Source: a virus
Taxonomy: Duplodnaviria; Caudoviricetes
Direction: 5' to 3' (one strand)
Virus record (IMG/VR): IMGVR_UViG_3300036770_004266
Location: 1-57,779 of that record
DNA length: 57,779 nt
Of this stretch, positions 1-46,799 are shown one piece after another. Every line of letters begins with the position of its first letter. Within the stretch, counting starts at the first letter, position 1. A model generated the notes under the pieces. That model had not been told where the DNA came from, made no database searches, and saw nothing but the letters and a program-made list of their open reading frames with translations. Made by a program: the position numbers and the translations under genes.

Positions 1-23
1 CCAAATGCGATACAAACCACCAG

Positions 24-135
24 ACCATATTGAAGTGTATTACATGCGGCGAACCCATCTGCCGCTTTCATTATTGATCGCTACTGTGTTCCCGGGACAC
101 TTCGCAGAGGCCTCCGTAATACACTTCAATATGGT
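24..135 (-). ncRNA. Candidate structured RNA closed by a 20-bp perfect stem, immediately 3' of tRNA-Tyr
   Basis: ACCATATTGAAGTGTATTAC (24-43) is the exact reverse complement of 116-135; internal hairpins GCGGC/GCCGC and GTGTTC/GGACAC. Confidence 0.5.
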
Positions 136-216
136 GGGTGGCCAGGGACTCGAACCCCGTATGCCAATGGCGCCAGATTTACAGTCTGGTGCAGTAACCT
201 GTTCTGCTCGCCACCC
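132..216 (-). tRNA. tRNA-Tyr(GTA)
   Basis: Cloverleaf; anticodon arm CCAGA-CTGTAAA-TCTGG, long variable arm, GTTCGAGTC T-loop, encoded CCA. Confidence 0.95.
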
Positions 217-219
217 ATG

Positions 220-296
220 TGGCACACCGTAGGGGATTTGAACCCCTGATCTTCTCCGTGAAAGGGAGATGTCCTAGGCCGCTAGACGAACGGTGC
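220..296 (-). tRNA. tRNA-Glu(TTC)
   Basis: Anticodon arm TCTCC-CTTTCAC-GGAGA, GTTCAAATC T-loop, CCA. Confidence 0.95.
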
Positions 297-308
297 ATGA
301 AACTTAAA

Positions 309-321
309 TTATTAAAGAACA
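309..321 (-). promoter_or_regulatory. boxA-like antitermination site
   Basis: TGTTCTTTAATAA versus E. coli rrn boxA TGCTCTTTAACAA, between a sigma70 promoter and tRNA-Glu. Confidence 0.55.
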
Positions 322-341
322 ATTTTAACTGCTATATTATT

Positions 342-370
342 ATAATATAGCCTATCCTACACTTTGTCAA
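342..370 (-). promoter_or_regulatory. sigma70-type promoter for tRNA-Glu/Tyr
   Basis: TTGACA-N17-TATTAT(AAT). Confidence 0.75.
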
Positions 371-383
371 GCAAAAACTATAC

Positions 384-409
384 TATGTTGGTGAGTGCTT
401 ACCAACATA
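384..409 (-). terminator. Hairpin, possible terminator or processing stem
   Basis: 9-bp stem TATGTTGGT/ACCAACATA; T-tract is offset, so the terminator call is weak. Confidence 0.35.
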
Positions 410-412
410 CTG

Positions 413-490
413 AGAGCCCCTAGCACCGGATTTGTCGGATTTTGGAGGTCTTACCCTGGAGGATTCTGGGGATCCTGTCCTAGGGGCTCT
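413..490 (-). ncRNA. Candidate small structured RNA downstream of tRNA-Cys
   Basis: 11-bp perfect closing stem AGAGCCCCTAG/CTAGGGGCTCT around a GC-rich interior. Confidence 0.4.
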
Positions 491-495
491 ACGAA

Positions 496-573
496 TGGAA
501 GTGCGGGTGGGATTCGAACCCACGGTATCGCAGTTTTGCAGGCTGCTGCATTTGACCACTCTGCCACCGCACT
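496..573 (-). tRNA. tRNA-Cys(GCA)
   Basis: Loop CTGCAAA, GTTCGAATC T-loop, U73 discriminator, CCA; C-A mismatch at 31:39. Confidence 0.92.
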
Positions 574-619
574 ATTGAACGTTATCTCTGATCCACTTCC
601 AGTATTCTGAAGCTTCCAT
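572..619 (-). CDS. Possible 15-aa peptide MEASEYWKWIRDNVQ
   Basis: AGGAG at 626-630 upstream of ATG; stop overlaps the tRNA-Cys 5' end; not in the ORF track. Confidence 0.3.
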   Translation of the reverse strand: MEASEYWKWIRDNVQ

Positions 620-629
620 TTTTCTCTCC

Positions 630-637
630 TATAAATA
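630..637 (+). promoter_or_regulatory. T4-type late promoter
   Basis: TATAAATA 5 nt before the J-domain gene ATG. Confidence 0.7.
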
Positions 638-642
638 TTAGT

Positions 643-1260
643 ATGGATCTATACCAAGAATTAGAATTACCGCAAGACTGTTCCTTTGAAGAAATCAAAC
701 AACAGTATCGAATCCTTGCCCGTGTTCACCATCCCGACATGGGAGGTGATCCTGAAAAGTTTAAAAAAATAAAATTAGCCTATGAGGTTCTAAGTGATCC
801 GGTACGAAGGACCGAATACGACAAGACAGGTAACACCCAAAAATCAATAGACATTCGCCACAGGGCAATGTCCGATATTTCTCAAATGTTTTTTAGAATG
901 ATGCCCCACTTCAATCCTAGGGGACAGGGCAATATTCTTTTTGATATCAAAAAAGAAATACAAGATTCCAAACAAGCAATAAAAACCGACATAGAAATAT
1001 GTCGTACATTCATTACCAATTTAGAACTTGCCAAAACAAAGATACGCAAAAAGACCGATAACATCGAAGGTGATAATATCTTTCTAGGTTTTATTGATAA
1101 GCAATTAGAAAGTAGAAATGCCGAACTATCTAACTTTAAAAATAGAATAGAAGTACTCGATGATATGATAAAAATACTTGAGGAATATCACTATGGATTC
1201 CTTGAAATAAAAAATGCCCCCACCGATGGGGGAGGATTTAAACATGATGGCGGAGGCTGA
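643..1260 (+). CDS. DnaJ-domain (J-domain) protein
   Basis: DLYQELEL...HHPDMGGDPEKFKKIKLAYEVLSDPVRRTEYD J-domain with HPD; coiled-coil C-terminus. Confidence 0.9.
   Translation: MDLYQELELPQDCSFEEIKQQYRILARVHHPDMGGDPEKFKKIKLAYEVLSDPVRRTEYDKTGNTQKSIDIRHRAMSDISQMFFRMMPHFNPRGQGNILFDIKKEIQDSKQAIKTDIEICRTFITNLELAKTKIRKKTDNIEGDNIFLGFIDKQLESRNAELSNFKNRIEVLDDMIKILEEYHYGFLEIKNAPTDGGGFKHDGGG
1209..1232 (-). terminator. Intrinsic terminator ending the 13-tRNA operon
   Basis: CCCCCA-TCGG-TGGGGG-CA-TTTTTT just downstream of tRNA-Ser(GCT), inside the antisense J-domain CDS. Confidence 0.7.
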
Positions 1261-1336
1261 GGGATTCGAACCCTCGCGACCTGTTAAGGACGACGGTTTA
1301 GCAAACCGCTGCATTTGACCACTCTGCCAAACCTCC
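1248..1336 (-). tRNA. tRNA-Ser(GCT)
   Basis: Loop TTGCTAA, long variable arm, G73, CCA. Confidence 0.95.
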
Positions 1337-1337
1337 A

Positions 1338-1445
1338 TTAGTCGCACCAGGTTTTGTATGGATTAGTAAACATTACACAATCCAAAACTTCCCCGGTGCC
1401 GATTAAAACTGTTGCAAATAAAAATAACCCTACTAAAGATTTCAT
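1338..1445 (-). CDS. 35-aa hydrophobic peptide MKSLVGLFLFATVLIGTGEVLDCVMFTNPYKTWCD
   Basis: Fills the spacer between the two tRNA-Ser genes; AAGGA RBS; signal-like N-terminus; two Cys; not in the ORF track. Confidence 0.55.
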   Translation of the reverse strand: MKSLVGLFLFATVLIGTGEVLDCVMFTNPYKTWCD

Positions 1446-1456
1446 ACTTTCCTTTC

Positions 1457-1546
1457 TGGAAGAAGCGGTGGGATTCGAACCCACGGACCCTTTCGGACCG
1501 ACAGTTTTCAAGACTGTTCCAATAAACCGGACTCTGGCACGCTTCC
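1457..1546 (-). tRNA. tRNA-Ser(TGA)
   Basis: ACAGT-CTTGAAA-ACTGT, long variable arm, CCA. Confidence 0.95.
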
Positions 1547-1551
1547 ATAAC

Positions 1552-1628
1552 TGGCACCACCTAGAAGATTCGAACTCCTAACCCCTTGGTCCGTAGCCAA
1601 GTGCTCTGATCCGTTGAGCTAAGGTGGT
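1552..1628 (-). tRNA. tRNA-Arg(ACG)
   Basis: CTTGG-CTACGGA-CCAAG, CCA. Confidence 0.95.
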
Positions 1629-1629
1629 A

Positions 1630-1706
1630 TGGTGCCCCAGGCGAGATTCGAACTCGCAAGATTTAGTTTCTAAGACTAACATGTATACCAATTCCATCAC
1701 CGGGGC
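1630..1706 (-). tRNA. tRNA-Leu(TAG), short variable loop
   Basis: TTAGT-CTTAGAA-ACTAA, Leu-type D arm, A73, CCA; only 77 nt. Confidence 0.9.
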
Positions 1707-1710
1707 ATAT

Positions 1711-1784
1711 TGGTCCTTCCTGATGGTTACGATCCACCGTCTCGCGGTTATCAGCCGCGTGCTCTACCATTGAGCTAAGGAAGG
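1711..1784 (-). tRNA. tRNA-Ile(GAT)
   Basis: CGCGG-CTGATAA-CCGCG; atypical T-loop ATCGTAA; CCA. Confidence 0.9.
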
Positions 1785-1791
1785 AATGTTC

Positions 1792-1867
1792 TGGTCCCGA
1801 CTCCTGGTTACGCTCCAGGCTCTCATGCTCTTCAGGCACGCGCTATCACTAGGTCAGCTGAGTCGGG
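1792..1867 (-). tRNA. tRNA-Phe(GAA)
   Basis: CGTGC-CTGAAGA-GCATG; atypical T-loop AGCGTAA; CCA. Confidence 0.85.
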
Positions 1868-1868
1868 C

Positions 1869-1943
1869 TGGAGCTCTCAACAAGAATCGAACTTGTATCT
1901 CTCGCATACCAAGCGAGTGTAATAACCGTTATACTATGGGAGC
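1869..1943 (-). tRNA. tRNA-Thr(GGT)
   Basis: CTCGC-TTGGTAT-GCGAG, CCA. Confidence 0.9.
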
Positions 1944-1948
1944 GAATC

Positions 1949-2025
1949 TGGTGGCGATGGTTGGATTCGAGCCAACGATCTTCTCCGTATGAAGGAGCTG
2001 CATTAAACCGCTATGCTACATCGCC
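1949..2025 (-). tRNA. tRNA with CAT anticodon (elongator Met or Ile2)
   Basis: Loop TTCATAC; paired G1-C72 argues against initiator; CCA. Confidence 0.85.
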
Positions 2026-2100
2026 TGGTGCATCGTGATGGATTCGAACCACCGACCTCTTTCTTGTAAGGAAAGCCTTCTACCGCTGAATTAACGATGC
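2026..2100 (-). tRNA. tRNA-Val(TAC)
   Basis: CTTTC-CTTACAA-GAAAG, CCA. Confidence 0.95.
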
Positions 2101-2105
2101 ATGTC

Positions 2106-2181
2106 TGGGGTGTAGGACGAGACTCGAACTCGCAACGACTGGAATCACAATCCAGGGCTCTGCCATTGAGCTACCAACACC
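2106..2181 (-). tRNA. tRNA-His(GTG)
   Basis: CTGGA-TTGTGAT-TCCAG, encoded G-1 and C73, CCA. Confidence 0.95.
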
Positions 2182-2187
2182 ATTGTT

Positions 2188-2262
2188 TGGCCTCGCCGCC
2201 CAGAATCGAACTGAGATCTAAACCTTAGGAGTGTCTTGTTCTATCCATTGAACTACGGCGAG
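2188..2262 (-). tRNA. tRNA-Arg(CCT)
   Basis: Loop CTCCTAA, imperfect anticodon stem, CCA. Confidence 0.88.
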
Positions 2263-2269
2263 AAGAATT

Positions 2270-2410
2270 AGTGACGGTTACCGATAGATCCCATCGCAGC
2301 CGACAAGCGTTGAGCCCCTACGGTAGCTAGACCGTAGACTTGATGAGCGGCCACTCATCTAGAATGCTAGTTAACGACCGGCCAGTCGTCCCTGTTGCAT
2401 TAGACTGCTT
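2270..2410 (-). ncRNA. Candidate multi-hairpin ncRNA with palindromic loops
   Basis: Hairpins at 2374-2389, 2342-2359, 2318-2337, 2282-2296; closing helix GCAGTC/GGCTGC; no credible ORF. Confidence 0.6.
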
Positions 2411-2415
2411 TGACT

Positions 2416-2491
2416 TGGTAGGGGCGACAGGGATCGAACCTGCGACCAACCGGTTAAAAGCCGGATGCTCTACCTACTGAGCTACACCCCC
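2416..2491 (-). tRNA. tRNA-Lys(TTT)
   Basis: CCGG-CTTTTAA-CCGG, CCA. Confidence 0.95.
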
Positions 2492-2521
2492 AAGCAAAAA
2501 TACACCGAATGCACTTTTGTT

Positions 2522-2595
2522 TGGAGGGGGTGTCAAGATTCGAACTTGAACTGAATGAGTCAAAGTCACTAGTGCTGCCGTTACACTACACCCCT
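2522..2595 (-). tRNA. tRNA-Gln(TTG)
   Basis: AGTGA-CTTTGAC-TCATT, 1:72 mismatch, CCA. Confidence 0.92.
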
Positions 2596-2713
2596 CTGTA
2601 TCCGAATTTTACTCGCACGTTATCGCCGATGCTTTCATCCTCGGTGCCGCCCGTTAGGACCTTTTATATAGCGCCGTCACTCACCCTCGTTGCGTTTAGC
2701 GCTTACTACCAAC

Positions 2714-2742
2714 AAAAAACCCAGGTCTCTCGATCCTGGGTT
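2714..2742 (-). terminator. Attenuator terminator upstream of the tRNA operon
   Basis: AACCCAGG-ATCGAGAGA-CCTGGG-TTTTTT. Confidence 0.85.
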
Positions 2743-2780
2743 AGTTAAAATTACTTGTTGCGAATAGTTTTAACTAACCC
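2738..2780 (-). promoter_or_regulatory. Antiterminator hairpin, mutually exclusive with the terminator
   Basis: 13-bp perfect stem GGGTTAGTTAAAA/TTTTAACTAACCC; left arm contains the leader stop codon, right arm shares AACCC with the terminator left arm. Confidence 0.8.
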
Positions 2781-2874
2781 TTGGCCACTCCTTTGATGTT
2801 CCAATAAAATCATAGGCATGGCGCGATACCATTGGCTGGCCTAGATTTAAATTGGGTATACAACTATAGAACAT
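2770..2874 (-). CDS. Leader peptide (34 aa) containing all 20 amino acids
   Basis: AGGAG at 2880-2884, ATG at 2874; MFYSCIPNLNLGQPMVSRHAYDFIGTSKEWPRVS. Confidence 0.8.
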   Translation of the reverse strand: MFYSCIPNLNLGQPMVSRHAYDFIGTSKEWPRVS

Positions 2875-2894
2875 AACTTCTCCTGTTAAAAAAT

Positions 2895-2934
2895 TATTTA
2901 TAATAATAGTACAGTCTAGATACAACTTTGTCAA
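2895..2934 (-). promoter_or_regulatory. Tandem sigma70 and T4 late promoters of the leader/tRNA operon
   Basis: TTGACA(2929-2934)-N17-TACTAT(2906-2911); TATAAATA at 2895-2902. Confidence 0.8.
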
Positions 2935-3221
2935 GCATTTTGTAAAACTTTTTCTTCCTTGAACACATCGGACCATGTCCGTAACTTAGTGTTCTTTTGA
3001 TCCTTTGCCTGTAGCACACGATCAATGTCTATCATACCTTCTTCGATCATCAAATCAATCATACACAAAAGATCGCCCGTTTCTTCCTCCAAGCGTTCCT
3101 TATTTGTCTGACCGTTATACTTATCCGTCACACCAAATCGAAATACTTTACTGATTGCTTGGATCACTTCTGCACATTCTTCCTGCGCAATCAACATCAC
3201 TTCTTTCTGTTTACTATTCAT
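2931..3221 (-). CDS. MazG-like NTP pyrophosphohydrolase
   Basis: QEECAEVIQAISK...LEEETGDLL acidic metal-binding motifs. Confidence 0.75.
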   Translation of the reverse strand: MNSKQKEVMLIAQEECAEVIQAISKVFRFGVTDKYNGQTNKERLEEETGDLLCMIDLMIEEGMIDIDRVLQAKDQKNTKLRTWSDVFKEEKVLQNA

Positions 3222-3235
3222 ATATCCTCATCATT

Positions 3236-3255
3236 AAAAAAGGGGCCGAAGCCCC
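3236..3255 (-). terminator. Intrinsic terminator
   Basis: GGGGC-TTCG-GCCCC-TTTTTT. Confidence 0.85.
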
Positions 3256-3259
3256 GTAA

Positions 3260-3646
3260 TTATACGAGTGCTGCGCCCAACTCTTTAATCAGCAAATCGT
3301 CATCCTTTTCTTCTTCCTTGATCCTTTTCTCTACAGATTTAATCTTAGCAGAAGTCTTCTGTACTGGTGCTACCGCAACCTTTGGAGCCTTAACCTTCGA
3401 CGTCGCATTGGTCACTTTCTTGTTCATGGTCTCAGTAATGAGATCGGTGTAATTAGCAAACACTCCACCCACATCTAGGAGATGCGCGCAAGCCTCAGCC
3501 TTAGACATTGGGCGAGGAAGCTCGATAAGCTCTAGGGGAGAATGCCCACCCTTAGCTAGCAACTTCGTGCGGGAAACAATGTCGTTTGCGAAGCGAACCT
3601 TGGTAACACCATTTTGTGTCGAAACACCGGCAACTGTAAAAGTCAT
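3260..3646 (-). CDS. Hypothetical early protein
   Basis: 128-aa ORF with GAGGAG RBS, own promoter and terminator. Confidence 0.8.
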   Translation of the reverse strand: MTFTVAGVSTQNGVTKVRFANDIVSRTKLLAKGGHSPLELIELPRPMSKAEACAHLLDVGGVFANYTDLITETMNKKVTNATSKVKAPKVAVAPVQKTSAKIKSVEKRIKEEEKDDDLLIKELGAALV

Positions 3647-3689
3647 TCAAATACTCCTCATAAAATATAAATTAACCTACCACTCTATT

Positions 3690-3718
3690 ATAATAACACC
3701 GTCAACATACTATGTCAA
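3690..3718 (-). promoter_or_regulatory. sigma70-type early promoter
   Basis: TTGACA-N17-TATTAT(AAT). Confidence 0.75.
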
Positions 3719-4073
3719 GCACTTTTTTGGAGTGCCTACAACTTTGGCGAAACTGATACCCCAAACAATCACAAGTGACCTTACCTTTTGAGTAGATTAC
3801 ACTATATGTTTTCTTGGACTTCTTTGAGGTAACTTCGAAGATCCGAGTGTCAGTCTTGATTGACGAACCCTTATATCCCACTATCTTAGATTTGAGAATC
3901 ATAGATATAGGCCACTCGGGCTTGCCTGTCGCCACGCAGACATAATCTGCACCTAACCACTTTGGATTTTCTACGATACGACCCTTGAAGGTATTGATAT
4001 CATAGTCTATCCAAAGTATATTGGATTTCCATTTGGTAGTAATTTCTACCTCGGATCCAATCTCAAAATTCAT
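3702..4073 (-). CDS. SWIM zinc-finger protein
   Basis: C-terminal CDCLGYQFRQSCRH (CxC...CxH). Confidence 0.7.
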   Translation of the reverse strand: MNFEIGSEVEITTKWKSNILWIDYDINTFKGRIVENPKWLGADYVCVATGKPEWPISMILKSKIVGYKGSSIKTDTRIFEVTSKKSKKTYSVIYSKGKVTCDCLGYQFRQSCRHSKKVLDIVC

Positions 4074-4252
4074 CGCTTAGGAAACCTCGCAGTAGGATCG
4101 CTGAATACTCGACCACCCTTATTTTTAACTGAGGCAGTCATAGTCTTCGGGTTCTTCACAACTTTGCCCTGTTCGATCTGTCCGCCGCGAGCTAGGAACT
4201 CCTTCATCTGCTCTTCGGATTCTTTTCTAAGCTGCTCTTTGGTCTTGTTCAT
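4070..4252 (-). CDS. Small protein resembling the SutA RNAP-binding domain
   Basis: KEQLRKESEEQMKEFLARGGQIEQ; start at MNKTK follows an AAGGA RBS. Confidence 0.55.
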   Translation of the reverse strand: MNKTKEQLRKESEEQMKEFLARGGQIEQGKVVKNPKTMTASVKNKGGRVFSDPTARFPKR

Positions 4253-4277
4253 TTGGTTCCTTTCTATCATTTTTTTA

Positions 4278-4306
4278 ATTATAAAGCCATTTGGTCAGTT
4301 TGTCAA
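4278..4306 (-). promoter_or_regulatory. Consensus sigma70 early promoter
   Basis: TTGACA-N17-TATAAT. Confidence 0.9.
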
Positions 4307-4332
4307 GCACCTAGTAAGTCATTGAAAACGTT

Positions 4333-4355
4333 AAAAATCCCCGCATGCGGGGATT
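4333..4355 (-). terminator. Intrinsic terminator
   Basis: Palindrome AATCCCCGCATGCGGGGATT followed by a T-run. Confidence 0.75.
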
Positions 4356-4360
4356 GGTTT

Positions 4361-4507
4361 CTAGGAATCTTTTTCCTCTACCTCTATGATTCCTTCCGAT
4401 TCAAAAAATTCAACCGTATCTGTTATTCCTTTATAGTGACCCCATCTGTAACATGAATAACAAGCACCTAACATTAGGCCTATTTGTATTACGCCGTATA
4501 GATCCAT
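4361..4507 (-). CDS. 48-aa small membrane protein
   Basis: AAGGAG RBS; MDLYGVIQIGLMLGACYSCYRWGHYKG...EEKDS; not in the ORF track. Confidence 0.65.
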   Translation of the reverse strand: MDLYGVIQIGLMLGACYSCYRWGHYKGITDTVEFFESEGIIEVEEKDS

Positions 4508-4526
4508 ATTGACTCCTTTTTAATAG

Positions 4527-5063
4527 TTATTCTTTCATAACAAGGTCCTCATCATTCGTATCATTTTCTTCAGATTTTTGAACAAACCAAGATTCCCGTT
4601 TTTGATTTAAGTGATCGAACAAATTATTCTCGATCAAAAATTTTGCAACTAAACTATTCTCTAAACCGTATGCTTCAATTTCCCAAGGCTGGTCCCAGTA
4701 AGAAACGTCATCGTCGTATACTTGCCCCATCCAAACCTTAACGTATTTTCTTCTGTATAATTTATCTTTTACTTCACCCTTAGCATATTGTTTTAGATGA
4801 ACCATCTCATGTGCTAAGGCCAAGAACATATGTATCTTTTTCTTGGTTCGATCTAATTCTATGATAAAGTCTCTTGGAGGATATGGCCATTGTTCTTCAA
4901 AATCGCAGTATCCTCCTGCTCCCAAATTATCTTTTACTTCTATCCGTACATTAATGGTTTTCTTTAATTTTTTGGATAGCAAATTGTCCGCGATATGATT
5001 CGCCGCAAGTTTAAACAATTTAGTTAGTTGTCGGTCCTTAGCGCCGCGAACAGATATATTCAT
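4527..5063 (-). CDS. HEXXH zinc-metallopeptidase-like protein
   Basis: LAHEMVHLKQY and QPWEIEAY. Confidence 0.75.
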   Translation of the reverse strand: MNISVRGAKDRQLTKLFKLAANHIADNLLSKKLKKTINVRIEVKDNLGAGGYCDFEEQWPYPPRDFIIELDRTKKKIHMFLALAHEMVHLKQYAKGEVKDKLYRRKYVKVWMGQVYDDDVSYWDQPWEIEAYGLENSLVAKFLIENNLFDHLNQKRESWFVQKSEENDTNDEDLVMKE

Positions 5064-5254
5064 ACTAGTATTTATTATTTAAAATGATGTCAGAATGCAC
5101 GCTTAATTCCGGCAATACATTACTTGCAAGATCTCCTACTCTCAATGGGATTATACTATCTATATTAAATATCTCCGTGTTCGTCTCATCCTTTTGCTTT
5201 TGATTAGATAACCTAGTTTCGGAAAGCCTTGCTTTGGATAATGGTTTAATCATA

Positions 5255-45521: not shown

Positions 45522-45957
45522 TAGTTTCCCACCAGAAATCAAACCATTCGGGAGTATCGTTTCGATTAATTGTCTGGGCACAAAAATTAGGAACAATACT
45601 ATATTGATTAATAAAATTATAAATTAATACTGCAGTATCCATCTTCCAGTAATGTTTTTGAATATAGTGTAATGTGTCACCCCTGTCCAAAATATCATCA
45701 ACTAAAAGAATATTACGTTCTCTATTATTTAATAATGTTGGACTTTCCTCTTCTCGTATTCCCTTATGTGACCATTGTATTGATGCCATTGGGATATCTA
45801 ATATATTTGATAAATGCACTGCGGGAACCAATCCTCCCCTTTGAATGCCCACTATTAAATCATATCTAGTGCCGGACTTCAATATTGCATGGCGAAGGAT
45901 ATCTATATCCTTTCGATATTCTTCAATAGTATACTTTATTCCCATTAGGTTCCCCAC
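45517..45957 (-). CDS. Type I phosphoribosyltransferase (xanthine/guanine PRT-like)
   Basis: IQRGGLVPA, LLVDDILDRGDT, FWWE. Confidence 0.88.
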   Translation of the reverse strand: MGNLMGIKYTIEEYRKDIDILRHAILKSGTRYDLIVGIQRGGLVPAVHLSNILDIPMASIQWSHKGIREEESPTLLNNRERNILLVDDILDRGDTLHYIQKHYWKMDTAVLIYNFINQYSIVPNFCAQTINRNDTPEWFDFWWETI

Positions 45958-46799
45958 GCATTTTTAAAGAGCGGAATCTGAAGACGGTCTGAATATCTCC
46001 AACCTTTCTCCATTGCTAGATTTGCAACAGTAGTTTTATGTTTATTATACATAATTTCTTCACCGCCACATGGCATCAAATATACAGTACCGCCGAATCC
46101 AGCTTTACGATATTCATTAACTGCTTCTTCTGCTTCTTTGACATCATCTTCATTAGCCACCACAAACTTGAGATAGGTATACCCATTTTTTTCATACTGC
46201 TTAATTACATCAGGTTTTATAGCATCTTCCCATTTTTCACCAGACACGGACAATTTAGGAGATACTGAGAATGTCAATTTATCGTAATCCCTACCATATC
46301 GAGTCCAGGTCTCAAACAAATATTCTTCAAACTCCTCAGACAGAGGTTGTGTACCATTTGTCTCGAATGTAATTTCGGTACAAGGAACCATCTTAGGGTT
46401 ATTTAAAAGATCGGGATATGATCTTTGCCAACCCAATAACGGCTCGCCTCCAGTAATAACTAAGTGAATATCGCCCCAACGGTTTTCCGGAAGTAAATCA
46501 GCAATCGCGTCAGCCACACTATTGGTGTCAAGAACAGGACTAAGATGCTTAAAGCGAGGATCCCAACTAGCATATGAATCACATCCAGTAGTGACGAGAG
46601 GAAGGTCTTCATATTTTTTATACTTATCTATAGTTTGAAATACTATATCCCGTTCCGCGGATTGTTCTCCCGTCGGCATACCAAAACCGGAACAAGTAAA
46701 ATTACATCCAAAAGTTCTTAGAAATATCGAAGGCACGCCCATATAGCGCCCTTCGCCCTGAATAGAATAAAATAATTCTGCAATTTTTAGTTTAGCCAT
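45945..46799 (-). CDS. queE: 7-carboxy-7-deazaguanine synthase QueE (radical SAM)
   Basis: SIQGEG, LRTFGCNFTC...CDS, TGGEP, ETNGT, SVSPK. Confidence 0.93.
   Translation of the reverse strand: MAKLKIAELFYSIQGEGRYMGVPSIFLRTFGCNFTCSGFGMPTGEQSAERDIVFQTIDKYKKYEDLPLVTTGCDSYASWDPRFKHLSPVLDTNSVADAIADLLPENRWGDIHLVITGGEPLLGWQRSYPDLLNNPKMVPCTEITFETNGTQPLSEEFEEYLFETWTRYGRDYDKLTFSVSPKLSVSGEKWEDAIKPDVIKQYEKNGYTYLKFVVANEDDVKEAEEAVNEYRKAGFGGTVYLMPCGGEEIMYNKHKTTVANLAMEKGWRYSDRLQIPLFKNAWGT

What the first reader, a model, noticed from the sequence alone, without database searches (positions are those of the whole stretch)
2714..2934. Pan-amino-acid leader-peptide attenuator controlling a phage tRNA operon (candidate tRNA-depletion sensor)
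SEEN: sigma70 promoter (2906-2934) and late promoter (2895-2902), then AGGAG, then a 34-codon ORF (2874-2770) MFYSCIPNLNLGQPMVSRHAYDFIGTSKEWPRVS with all 20 amino acids in its first 30 residues. The last codons and stop (GGGUUAGUUAAAA) pair perfectly over 13 bp with UUUUAACUAACCC. That second arm overlaps the left arm of an intrinsic terminator (AACCCAGG...CCUGGG-U6). Downstream lie 13 tRNA genes ending at a terminator at 1209-1232. KNOWN: trp/his/thr/leu attenuators use leader stalling to choose between such hairpins but sense one or a few amino acids through codon runs; several anti-phage defences (PrrC, RloC, PARIS AriB, retron Ec78 PtuAB) destroy tRNAs. INFERENCE: a ribosome reaching the stop masks the antiterminator arm, so transcription terminates; stalling on any depleted or uncharged tRNA frees it and turns on the phage tRNAs. 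I know of no described attenuator of this general kind but could not search. Caveat: stalls at about codons 28-34 may still mask the arm.
Basis: partly seen in the sequence, partly recalled or inferred. Interest (0 to 1): 0.97.

Follow-up and report, generated by a model that had tools for sequence, protein, structure and literature searches.

The report
All-amino-acid leader controls phage tRNAs
In front of this phage's block of tRNA genes lies a tiny translated stretch that uses all 20 amino acids and is wired to an RNA on/off switch, so the phage can probably sense any shortage in the cell's decoding supply and then switch on its own tRNAs.

Summary
At 2714-2934(-) lie a sigma70-type promoter, AGGAG, a 34-codon ORF with all 20 amino acids by codon 30, and a 13-bp hairpin containing the stop codon. 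The 3' arm of that hairpin overlaps an intrinsic terminator. Then come 12 tRNA genes, not 13. On its own the composition is weak evidence: 2 of 251 short ORFs in the window are 20/20. Comparison settles it. I collected 88 distinct homologous leaders (32-72 aa) from uncultured T4-like (Kyanoviridae-related) phage contigs. Of these, 69 hold all 20 amino acids, 17 hold 19 and 2 hold 18, against about 1-2 expected with 20/20. The single Cys, Gln, His and Tyr sit at different positions in different leaders, so presence is selected, not position. Every leader examined has an antiterminator with the stop codon inside or just 3' of its 5' arm, overlapping the terminator. Arms co-vary between subfamilies, and a tRNA array follows wherever sequence allows. 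Leaders precede 7 of 7 large arrays and 31 of 34 tRNA-Gln-first arrays. None was found in 596 Gb of prokaryote genomes or five cultured relatives. Most likely, uninterrupted translation causes termination and a stall at any codon gives read-through. No experiment exists, and six literature searches found no description.

The parts
2931..3221 (-). MazG-like nucleoside triphosphate pyrophosphohydrolase gene directly upstream. It was used as the anchor to find related loci.
   Evidence: ORF; phrog_4856, E 6.6e-22; 353 relatives in IMG/VR
2906..2934 (-). Sigma70-type promoter TTGACA-17-TACTAT. Its -35 box overlaps the MazG stop codon.
   Evidence: 10 of 12 matches. No other promoter-like site lies between it and the first tRNA.
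2895..2902 (-).
   Evidence: Present but not enriched in the window: 8 found, 10 expected. Function not supported.
2880..2884 (-). Shine-Dalgarno AGGAG, 5 nt before the ATG
2770..2874 (-). Leader ORF: 34 codons plus UAA, with all 20 amino acids by codon 30
   Evidence: There are 88 distinct homologous leaders, 69 of them 20/20. L404 shares a block of about 20 nt and the peptide FIGTSK with it.
2768..2780 (-). Antiterminator 5' arm GGGUUAGUUAAAA, containing the stop codon at 2772-2770
2738..2750 (-). Antiterminator 3' arm UUUUAACUAACCC. Its last bases are also the start of the terminator's 5' arm.
   Evidence: The own arm ranks 1st of 15 in the swap test.
2714..2742 (-). Intrinsic terminator: 8-bp outer stem plus 2-bp inner stem with a GAGA loop, then U6. 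Its alternative structure is the antiterminator.
   Evidence: dG -14.7 kcal/mol; terminator covariation in relatives
2596..2713 (-). Spacer of about 118 nt between the U-tract and the first tRNA. No promoter-like site and no Rfam match.
1248..2595 (-). tRNA array of 12 genes: Gln, Lys, Arg(cct), His, Val, Met, Thr, Ile, Leu, Arg(acg), Ser, Ser. This is the regulated unit.
1217..1232 (-). Terminator-like site closing the first block of the array
132..573 (-). Three more tRNA genes (Cys, Glu, Tyr) before the contig end. The array may continue beyond the window.
   Evidence: the window is a fragment, CheckV completeness 32%

Best explanation
This is a ribosome-dependent transcription attenuator placed in front of the phage's tRNA gene array. 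Its leader peptide is built to contain every amino acid, so it reports how well decoding works in general.

Proposed sequence of events:
1. Host RNA polymerase starts at the promoter.
2. A ribosome translates the 34-codon leader while the polymerase transcribes the next ~60 nt.
3. If the ribosome runs without pause to the stop codon, it sits on the 5' arm of the antiterminator. The terminator then folds and transcription ends at 2714.
4. If the ribosome waits at any codon because one aminoacyl-tRNA is scarce, or if the leader is not translated at all, the antiterminator forms first. It sequesters the terminator's 5' arm, and the polymerase reads through into the tRNA genes.

Shown here: the anatomy, its conservation, the pressure to keep all 20 amino acids, and the link to tRNA arrays.

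Inferred: translation, the direction of the switch, and the trigger.
For: (1) All-20 composition is a family property.
- Of 88 distinct homologous leaders (32-72 aa, median 40), 69 have 20/20, 17 have 19 and 2 have 18.
- Expected with 20/20 is 1.0 under proteome composition and 1.7 under the leaders' own pooled composition (maximum 7 in 2000 simulations) (earlier set).
- After clustering the first 64 leaders, most members are 20/20 in 8 of 9 clusters at 60% identity.

(2) Presence is selected, not position.
- Cys occupies 15 alignment columns.
- In 48 leaders of one subfamily, Cys lies before the hairpin motif only in 28, after it only in 17, in both in 0 and in neither in 3.
- Leaders without Gln in the motif have Gln elsewhere in 21 of 22, against 13 of 26 for the others.
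- C, D, H, W and Y occur exactly once in 86-97% of leaders.

(3) The architecture is conserved.
- All 16 first leaders and all 22 later distinct ones have an antiterminator of -16 to -28 kcal/mol.
- Its 5' arm begins in the last codons, and the stop lies inside the arm or a few nt beyond it. Its 3' arm uses 3-10 nt of the terminator's 5' arm.
- Only 4.4% of 228 other terminator-like sites show this at dG <= -20, against 14 of 16 leaders.

(4) The arms co-vary.
- Own arm pairs average -20.2 kcal/mol and swapped pairs -13.1. The own 3' arm ranks 1st or 2nd of 15 in 12 of 15 leaders.
- For the terminator and a mid-ORF hairpin, 93.9% of cells are paired against 86.2% in shuffles. There are 67 double changes against 22.7 expected, 0 of 500 shuffles reach these values, and slid controls stay at or below 58%.

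(5) The amino-acid set is complete before the 5' arm begins in 14 of 16 leaders.

(6) The link to tRNA arrays is tight.
- A leader precedes 7 of 7 arrays of 25 or more tRNAs and 0 of 5 arrays of 6-11 tRNAs.
- 49 of 52 pattern-found leaders are followed by tRNA-Gln within 109-488 nt. The other 3 have at most 307 nt of contig left.
- In a search anchored on tRNA-Gln and blind to the arms, 31 of 34 arrays that start with tRNA-Gln have a leader.

(7) Translation signals are kept by different means: SD plus ATG, ATGA overlap with the MazG stop, a -10 box 6-10 nt before the ATG, or SD plus GTG/TTG. An open frame with an ATG precedes 68 of 69 pattern matches.

(8) No promoter-like site lies between the window's terminator and its first tRNA. 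In L054 the gap is only 16 nt.
Against: - No direct evidence of translation, of 3' ends at 2714, or of any response.
- In 13 of 16 leaders at least one amino acid occurs only within 4 codons of the 5' arm or inside it. A ribosome stalled there may still mask the arm.
- Synonymous codon choice is not tuned to the phage's tRNA set beyond what the peptide sequence gives: P = 0.05-1.0 in 16 leaders.
- Leaders and arrays do not match one to one. L172 lacks Cys though its array has tRNA-Cys. L255 lacks Gln though tRNA-Gln comes first.
- In many relatives (L083-L086, L102, L103, L404, L411 and others) a sigma70-type promoter and a boxA-like motif lie between the terminator and the first tRNA. There the attenuator can only modulate part of the transcription.
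- One leader (L165) has a weak antiterminator, and its own arm ranks 11th of 15.
- With the most downstream ATG as start, only 35 of 64 are 20/20, though 58 of 64 have at least 19.
- The sequences are related, so counts are not independent events.
- Cultured relatives with tRNA clusters (S-PM2, S-CRM01, S-CREM1, DSL-LC03, Melnitz) lack the element.
Confidence: 0.7

Rival explanations
1. Same attenuator, but its natural trigger is supply of the phage's own tRNAs, making it a homeostatic feedback loop. Early in infection the phage's AT-rich codons are read slowly by the host tRNA pool, so ribosomes lag and the array is transcribed. Once phage tRNAs accumulate, the leader is read quickly and transcription stops.
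For: - The arrays that carry the leader are near-complete sets, covering 18-20 amino acids.
- Leaders touch 23-25 of 24-26 phage tRNA species in large arrays.
- About 90% of codons in neighbouring phage genes are readable by the phage's own tRNAs.
Against: - There is no synonymous tuning of leader codons to phage anticodons.
- Leaders contain amino acids for which the fetched array has no tRNA, in 7 of 7 large arrays, although the arrays may be incompletely fetched.
Confidence: 0.35
2. Same attenuator, evolved specifically as a counter-defence alarm. Host anticodon nucleases or other tRNA-depleting immunity stall the leader ribosome, and that turns on replacement tRNAs.
For: - The logic fits any single-tRNA loss.
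- Phage tRNAs are reported to counter tRNA-targeting defences. I saw this only in the abstract of PMC12409363 in the listing.
Against: - Nothing in the sequences points to defence rather than starvation, host shut-off or codon-usage mismatch.
- No defence or anti-defence genes were examined next to the element.
- The host is unknown.
Confidence: 0.2
3. A translation-dependent insulator without a sensing role. The ORF only brings a ribosome to the stop so that the terminator can form and separate upstream mRNA transcription from the tRNA array. The composition would then have no function.
For: - In five relatives the leader ATG overlaps the stop of the upstream MazG gene.
- A separate promoter follows the terminator in several relatives.
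Against: - It does not explain 69 of 88 leaders holding all 20 amino acids, nor the relocating single Cys and Gln.
- Many leaders have their own promoter directly upstream.
Confidence: 0.08
4. The ORF encodes a functional micro-protein, and the hairpins are an ordinary terminator with a chance upstream stem.
For: Gene callers predicted some members as hypothetical proteins.
Against: - Conserved peptide motifs coincide with RNA helices. GFGK corresponds to the antiterminator 5' arm and LP..GW to the mid-ORF hairpin. The rest varies freely apart from composition.
- No match in the one protein-family library searched (PHROGs).
- The antiterminator is far stronger than at control terminators.
Confidence: 0.03
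5. Reverse logic, as in pyrBI-type attenuators: a ribosome close behind the polymerase melts the terminator, so translation gives read-through.
For: It is a known alternative design for leader-peptide attenuators. This is recalled, not tested here.
Against: The stop codon lies 23-33 nt upstream of the terminator's 5' arm in all 16 leaders. That is too far for a terminating ribosome to reach the terminator stem. The ribosome would instead cover the antiterminator's 5' arm.
Confidence: 0.04

Closest known systems
Leader-peptide transcription attenuators of amino-acid operons (trp, his, leu, thr, ilv, pheA; Rfam leader families)
   Same: - A short translated ORF is followed by an antiterminator and an intrinsic terminator that exclude each other.
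- The position of the ribosome decides which one forms.
- The spacing from stop codon to terminator is similar.
   Different: - There is no run of codons for one amino acid. Instead every amino acid appears, mostly once or twice.
- No conserved 1:2-type partner exists for the 5' arm, so an untranslated leader should read through.
- The target is a tRNA gene array in a phage, not a biosynthetic operon.
- No Rfam leader family matches.
Translation-stress-sensing leader peptides of resistance genes (for example the BmrCD attenuator)
   Same: Ribosome slowing on a leader ORF switches on downstream genes by transcription attenuation. The signal is the state of translation rather than one metabolite. 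I saw this for BmrCD only in the abstract of PMC4191407 in the listing.
   Different: Those respond to ribosome-targeting drugs, and their peptides are not compositionally complete. Here the peptide composition itself appears to be the sensor design.
T-box riboswitches
   Same: They regulate by antitermination according to tRNA charging. This is established knowledge; I saw the abstract of PMC2879506 in the listing.
   Different: - A T-box binds one specific uncharged tRNA directly and needs no ribosome.
- Here there is no T-box match, one element would cover all tRNAs, and it works through translation.
RelA-dependent stringent response
   Same: It is a general sensor of any uncharged tRNA at the ribosomal A site (established knowledge, recalled).
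   Different: RelA is a trans-acting protein that makes an alarmone. This element is a cis-acting RNA and ORF device with one local output.

Membership tests
Ribosome-dependent (leader-peptide) transcription attenuators | Short ORF with translation start signals upstream of the regulated genes | tested here: met
   - ORF with AGGAG plus ATG in the window.
- An open frame with an ATG precedes 68 of 69 pattern matches.
- Four kinds of start context are conserved.
- Translation itself is not testable here.
Ribosome-dependent (leader-peptide) transcription attenuators | Intrinsic terminator between the leader and the regulated genes | tested here: met
   - Stem plus U6 at 2742-2714.
- Terminator helix 96.5% paired, with compensatory changes at 3 pairs, in 52 relatives.
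Ribosome-dependent (leader-peptide) transcription attenuators | Antiterminator that excludes the terminator and can be masked by the leader ribosome | tested here: met
   - 13-bp helix containing the stop codon and overlapping the terminator arm.
- Present in 16 of 16 first leaders and 22 of 22 later ones.
- Controls.
Ribosome-dependent (leader-peptide) transcription attenuators | Run or enrichment of regulatory codons for the sensed amino acid | tested here: not met
   No codon runs. All 20 amino acids are present, and C, D, H, W and Y occur exactly once in 86-97% of leaders.
Ribosome-dependent (leader-peptide) transcription attenuators | Upstream segment (region 1) that pairs with the antiterminator's 5' arm when the leader is not translated | tested here: not met
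   In 52 relatives the 5' arm has no consistent upstream partner. A conserved mid-ORF hairpin exists but does not involve the arm.
Ribosome-dependent (leader-peptide) transcription attenuators | Read-through responds to ribosome stalling | not testable with these tools
   This needs reporter, in vitro or Term-seq/Ribo-seq data. The public RNA runs gave contigs only, with no cover over the leader.
Rfam amino-acid leader families and T-box | Match to the covariance model | tested here: not met
   cmscan of window 1-3400 at E <= 1 gave tRNAs and weak chance hits only, and nothing in 2700-2940.

The most novel reading that the evidence does not exclude
A universal cis-acting gauge of aminoacyl-tRNA supply. 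One ORF of 32-45 codons samples all 20 amino acids, and a hold-up at any single codon flips an RNA switch that turns on the phage's near-complete tRNA set.

The phage could then restore decoding whenever the host pool fails, whether through starvation, phage-induced shut-off or tRNA-cleaving immunity.

Each single-copy codon would be individually necessary for the response to its cognate tRNA.
Probability: 0.55. Interest if true: 0.95.

Novelty: new variant of a known kind. Interest (0 to 1): 0.9.

Why it matters
Leader-peptide attenuation has been known for decades as a way to sense one amino acid through a run of its codons. Here the same hardware appears rebuilt to sense all of them at once, and it controls tRNA genes rather than a biosynthetic operon.

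If confirmed, it would be:
- the first described regulation of a phage tRNA array by the state of translation;
- a natural compact reporter of global decoding capacity;
- a direct handle on the open question of when and why phages with large tRNA sets express them.

The compositional rule (every amino acid present, position free) is also a new kind of sequence constraint. Gene finders and RNA-family libraries do not look for it.

Tried and rejected
- **Similarity to cultured phages.** DNA and peptide searches of 50,697 phage records with the window leader and with two relatives' leaders found only tRNA matches or nothing.
- **Five cultured relatives.** tRNA clusters of S-PM2, S-CRM01, S-CREM1, DSL-LC03 and Melnitz were read for a short ORF plus terminator. 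No leader of this type was found.
- **Synonymous-codon tuning to phage anticodons.** Not significant.
- **A trp-like region 1.** Not found.
- **T4-type late promoter.** The motif is not enriched.
- **Public sequencing runs.** Two metatranscriptome runs and two DNA runs were laid on 1200-5200. All are assembled contigs. RNA contigs lie on tRNA genes, on 2879-2975 and on 3629-3931, and none covers 2540-2807. This says nothing about expression or 3' ends.
- **MAFFT alignment of 15 diverse attenuators.** It misaligned the arms, so cross-subfamily covariation was judged by the arm-swap test instead.
- **RNAalifold on the 52-member subfamily.** It returned the antiterminator, but its arms had been fixed by the search pattern, so those pairs carry no information.
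- **Prokaryote genomes.** A pattern scan of 596 Gb returned 100 stretches. In the 80 loci held, 95 matches were read, 8 were followed by a T-run, and none was a leader with a tRNA array. Two were the end of a ribosomal protein L31 gene.
- **Rejected reading: chance ORF.**
- **Rejected reading: micro-protein.** Its conserved motifs coincide with RNA helices.
- **Supplementary files.** Not consulted (closed). No paper I found bears on the element, so they probably do not matter here.
- **Literature.** Six full-text searches gave no description of an all-amino-acid leader or of attenuation of phage tRNA genes. I saw only listings and abstract starts and read no paper in full.
Full report
**What is in the window**

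On the minus strand, downstream of a MazG-like gene (3221-2931; phrog_4856), the features lie in this order:
- a sigma70-type promoter, TTGACA-17-TACTAT (2934-2906);
- AGGAG (2884-2880);
- a 34-codon ORF (2874-2770), MFYSCIPNLNLGQPMVSRHAYDFIGTSKEWPRVS.

All 20 amino acids are present by residue 30. The last codons and the UAA stop lie inside GGGUUAGUUAAAA (2780-2768). This pairs over 13 consecutive bp with UUUUAACUAACCC (2750-2738) in the minimum-energy fold (z = -3.1, 0 of 200 shuffles fold as well).

The 3' arm shares AACCC with the 5' arm of an intrinsic terminator (2742-2714). The terminator has an 8-bp outer stem, a 2-bp inner stem with a GAGA loop, then U6 (-14.7 kcal/mol).

About 118 nt further on, twelve tRNA genes follow (2595-1248), then a terminator-like site (1232-1217) and three more tRNAs before the contig end. 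No promoter-like site lies between the attenuator and the first tRNA. Rfam has no match to the region.

Two details of the finding do not hold. There are 12, not 13, tRNA genes up to the distal terminator. The TATAAATA motif is not enriched in the window (8 found, 10 expected).

**Is the single case beyond chance?**

Not by itself. A random peptide with the window's proteome composition reaches 20/20 with P = 1.8e-4 at 30 residues and 9.6e-4 at 34. But the window holds 251 ATG-ORFs of 28-45 aa, and two of them reach 20/20. The question had to be settled by comparison.

**Relatives found through the upstream gene**

The window is an IMG/VR virus record, a fragment with CheckV completeness 32%. 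Its helicase is 61-63% identical to those of Kyanoviridae, namely T4-like cyanophages and Methylophilales phage Melnitz.

With the MazG protein I fetched 80 related viral loci. Eleven had tRNA genes downstream. Nine of these, carrying seven distinct sequences, showed the same arrangement: an ORF of 31-42 aa with 18-20 different amino acids, a hairpin over its stop codon, and a terminator.

A scan of all held loci looked at ORFs of 28-45 aa with a terminator 10-70 nt after the stop. The histogram of amino-acid diversity was bimodal: a broad hump at 13-17, then 5 at 18, none at 19 and 23 at 20.

**Relatives found through the tRNA arrays**

I searched 25 whole contigs of these phages for tRNAs and read the array flanks.
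- All seven arrays of 25-31 tRNAs with intact upstream sequence carry such a leader just before the first tRNA.
- None of five arrays of 6-11 tRNAs does.
- Two arrays were cut by contig ends.

**Relatives found through an arm pattern**

A DNA pattern specified only the two antiterminator arms of one subfamily. It found 114 stretches in IMG/VR, of which 80 loci were returned.
- 69 matches were followed by a T-run, and 68 of these were preceded by an open frame with an ATG.
- The 52 distinct peptides (36-56 aa) have 20/20 amino acids in 41 cases and 19 in 11.
- 49 are followed by tRNA-Gln(UUG) within 109-488 nt. The other three have at most 307 nt of contig left.
- The same pattern in 596 Gb of prokaryote genomes gave no leader with a tRNA array.

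**Relatives found blind to the leader**

The last search was blind to the leader. A pattern for the tRNA-Gln gene itself returned 60 new loci.
- In 34 of them tRNA-Gln is the first tRNA and at least 300 nt lie upstream.
- 27 of these have an ATG leader plus terminator with 19 or 20 amino-acid types (18 rows with 20, 9 rows with 19).
- 4 more have GTG or TTG leaders of 34-36 aa, all 20/20.
- 1 has a doubtful 67-aa ORF, and 2 have nothing.

This search brought in new arm sequences and very compact leaders, for example 32 aa with 20/20 in L406. It also found L404, the closest relative of the window's own leader. L404 shares with it a block of about 20 nt and the peptide FIGTSK, but has different, mutually complementary arms.

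**The compositional rule**

There are 88 distinct leaders in all. 69 have all 20 amino acids, 17 have 19 and 2 have 18. Independent draws give 1.0 expected with 20/20 under proteome composition. They give 1.7 under the leaders' own pooled composition, with a maximum of 7 in 2000 simulations. The constraint is therefore 'each one present', not merely an even composition.

The leaders are related, so the counts are not independent. After clustering the first 64, most members are 20/20 in 26 of 32 clusters at 80% identity. The same holds in 8 of 9 clusters at 60% and in 4 of 5 at 45%.

More telling, the rare residues move.
- Cys occupies 15 alignment columns.
- In 48 leaders of one subfamily Cys is N-terminal only in 28, after the hairpin only in 17, in both in 0 and in neither in 3.
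- Leaders without Gln in the conserved motif have one elsewhere in 21 of 22, against 13 of 26 for the rest.
- C, D, H, W and Y occur exactly once in 86-97% of leaders.

The conserved peptide motifs coincide with RNA helices: GFGK is the 5' arm and LP..GW is a mid-ORF hairpin. What is conserved at the peptide level is composition.

With the most downstream ATG as start the numbers fall to 35 of 64 with 20/20 and 58 of 64 with at least 19. That is still far above expectation.

**The RNA switch**

All 16 first leaders and all 22 later distinct ones have an antiterminator of -16 to -28 kcal/mol. Its 5' arm starts in the last codons, and the stop lies inside the arm or a few nt beyond it. Its 3' arm takes 3-10 nt of the terminator's 5' arm.

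Controls and covariation:
- Among 228 other terminator-like sites in the same sequences, 4.4% show such an upstream pairing at dG <= -20, against 14 of 16 leaders.
- Arms differ between subfamilies and match their own partners. Own pairs average -20.2 kcal/mol and swapped pairs -13.1.
- The own 3' arm ranks first or second of 15 in 12 of 15 leaders. The exceptions are L085 (near-identical relatives), L054 (my window cut its arm) and L165 (a truly weak helix).
- In 52 aligned relatives the terminator and a 5-bp mid-ORF hairpin are 93.9% paired, against 86.2% in shuffles. They show 67 double changes against 22.7 expected. None of 500 shuffles reaches these values, and slid controls stay at or below 58%.
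- The 5' arm has no conserved upstream partner, so an untranslated leader should fold the antiterminator.
- The stop codon lies 23-33 nt before the terminator's 5' arm. A terminating ribosome can cover the antiterminator arm but cannot reach the terminator.
- In 14 of 16 leaders the amino-acid set is complete before the 5' arm begins.

**Mechanism**

The best reading follows. Uninterrupted translation to the stop masks the antiterminator and gives termination. A wait at any codon, or no translation, gives read-through into the tRNA genes. This is inference from anatomy and conservation.

Points against a clean picture:
- Some amino acids occur only within four codons of the arm (13 of 16 leaders).
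- Synonymous codons are not tuned to the phage's anticodons.
- Amino acids missing from a leader do not correspond to tRNAs missing from its array.
- In many relatives a promoter and a boxA-like motif follow the terminator, so there the switch governs only part of the input.

What triggers the switch in nature cannot be told from sequence. Candidates are amino-acid shortage, slow reading of phage codons before the phage tRNAs accumulate, host shut-off, or tRNA-cleaving defence.

**Comparison with known systems and novelty**

The hardware is that of the classical amino-acid operon attenuators, but three defining features differ:
- there is no codon run, and the peptide is instead compositionally complete;
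- there is no region-1 partner for the 5' arm;
- the target is a phage tRNA array.

The element matches no family in Rfam or PHROGs. Profile searches of 5.8 and 1.84 billion proteins found only 19 and 22 tiny unnamed proteins of the same family. Six literature searches found no description (listings and abstract starts only).

I file it as a new variant of a known kind. It works like a leader-peptide attenuator but fails the membership feature 'regulatory codon run'.

**Limits**

No experiment exists, and no cultured phage carries the element. The public RNA data were contigs only and uninformative.

Noticed in passing
L044, L048, L050, L057, L004, L025; L404; L411, L421, L462: Between the attenuator's terminator and the first tRNA, many relatives carry one or two sigma70-type promoters. 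These are followed by a conserved motif of the type GTTCTTTAACAATTTG or TTCTTTAAAAATT. From memory it resembles the boxA antitermination signal of bacterial rRNA operons. The window itself lacks it.
   Followed up: no
L164, L168, L169, L170, L175: The tRNA arrays of several related phages include a tRNA with anticodon CUA, which ARAGORN labels Pyl. This is a possible amber suppressor. None of these five leaders ends in UAG.
   Followed up: no
L054:4594-5015: A permuted (two-piece) tmRNA gene with tag peptide ANDESYRIAA lies just upstream of that phage's leader and tRNA array.
   Followed up: partly
window 643-1260 (+): A 205-aa protein with a J-domain-like N-terminus (it matches only PHROG families of unknown function) is encoded on the opposite strand, inside the tRNA region. 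Its end overlaps the terminator at 1217-1232.
   Followed up: no
window 45945-46076 (-): This is the only other short ORF of the window with all 20 amino acids (43 aa). It was not examined further and may be chance.
   Followed up: no
alignment A6, columns 92-99: An 8-nt block, CACGCCCA, is almost invariant in 52 leaders, including at synonymous positions. It lies about 11-18 nt after the mid-ORF hairpin. It may be an RNA polymerase pause signal that synchronises the ribosome and the polymerase. This is speculation.
   Followed up: no
L103, L164, L165, L170, L172, L175; L404: In these relatives a -10 box lies only 6-10 nt before the leader's ATG and no Shine-Dalgarno is visible. The leader may therefore be translated from a leaderless or near-leaderless transcript.
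   Followed up: no
window 2596-2713 (-): The spacer of about 118 nt between the U-tract and tRNA-Gln has no promoter-like site and no Rfam match. Its role is unknown.
   Followed up: partly
L164, L170, L172: Arrays contain tRNAs with A at the first anticodon position other than Arg-ACG, namely Ser-AGA, Thr-AGU and Leu-AAG. As far as I recall this is unusual for bacteria.
   Followed up: no
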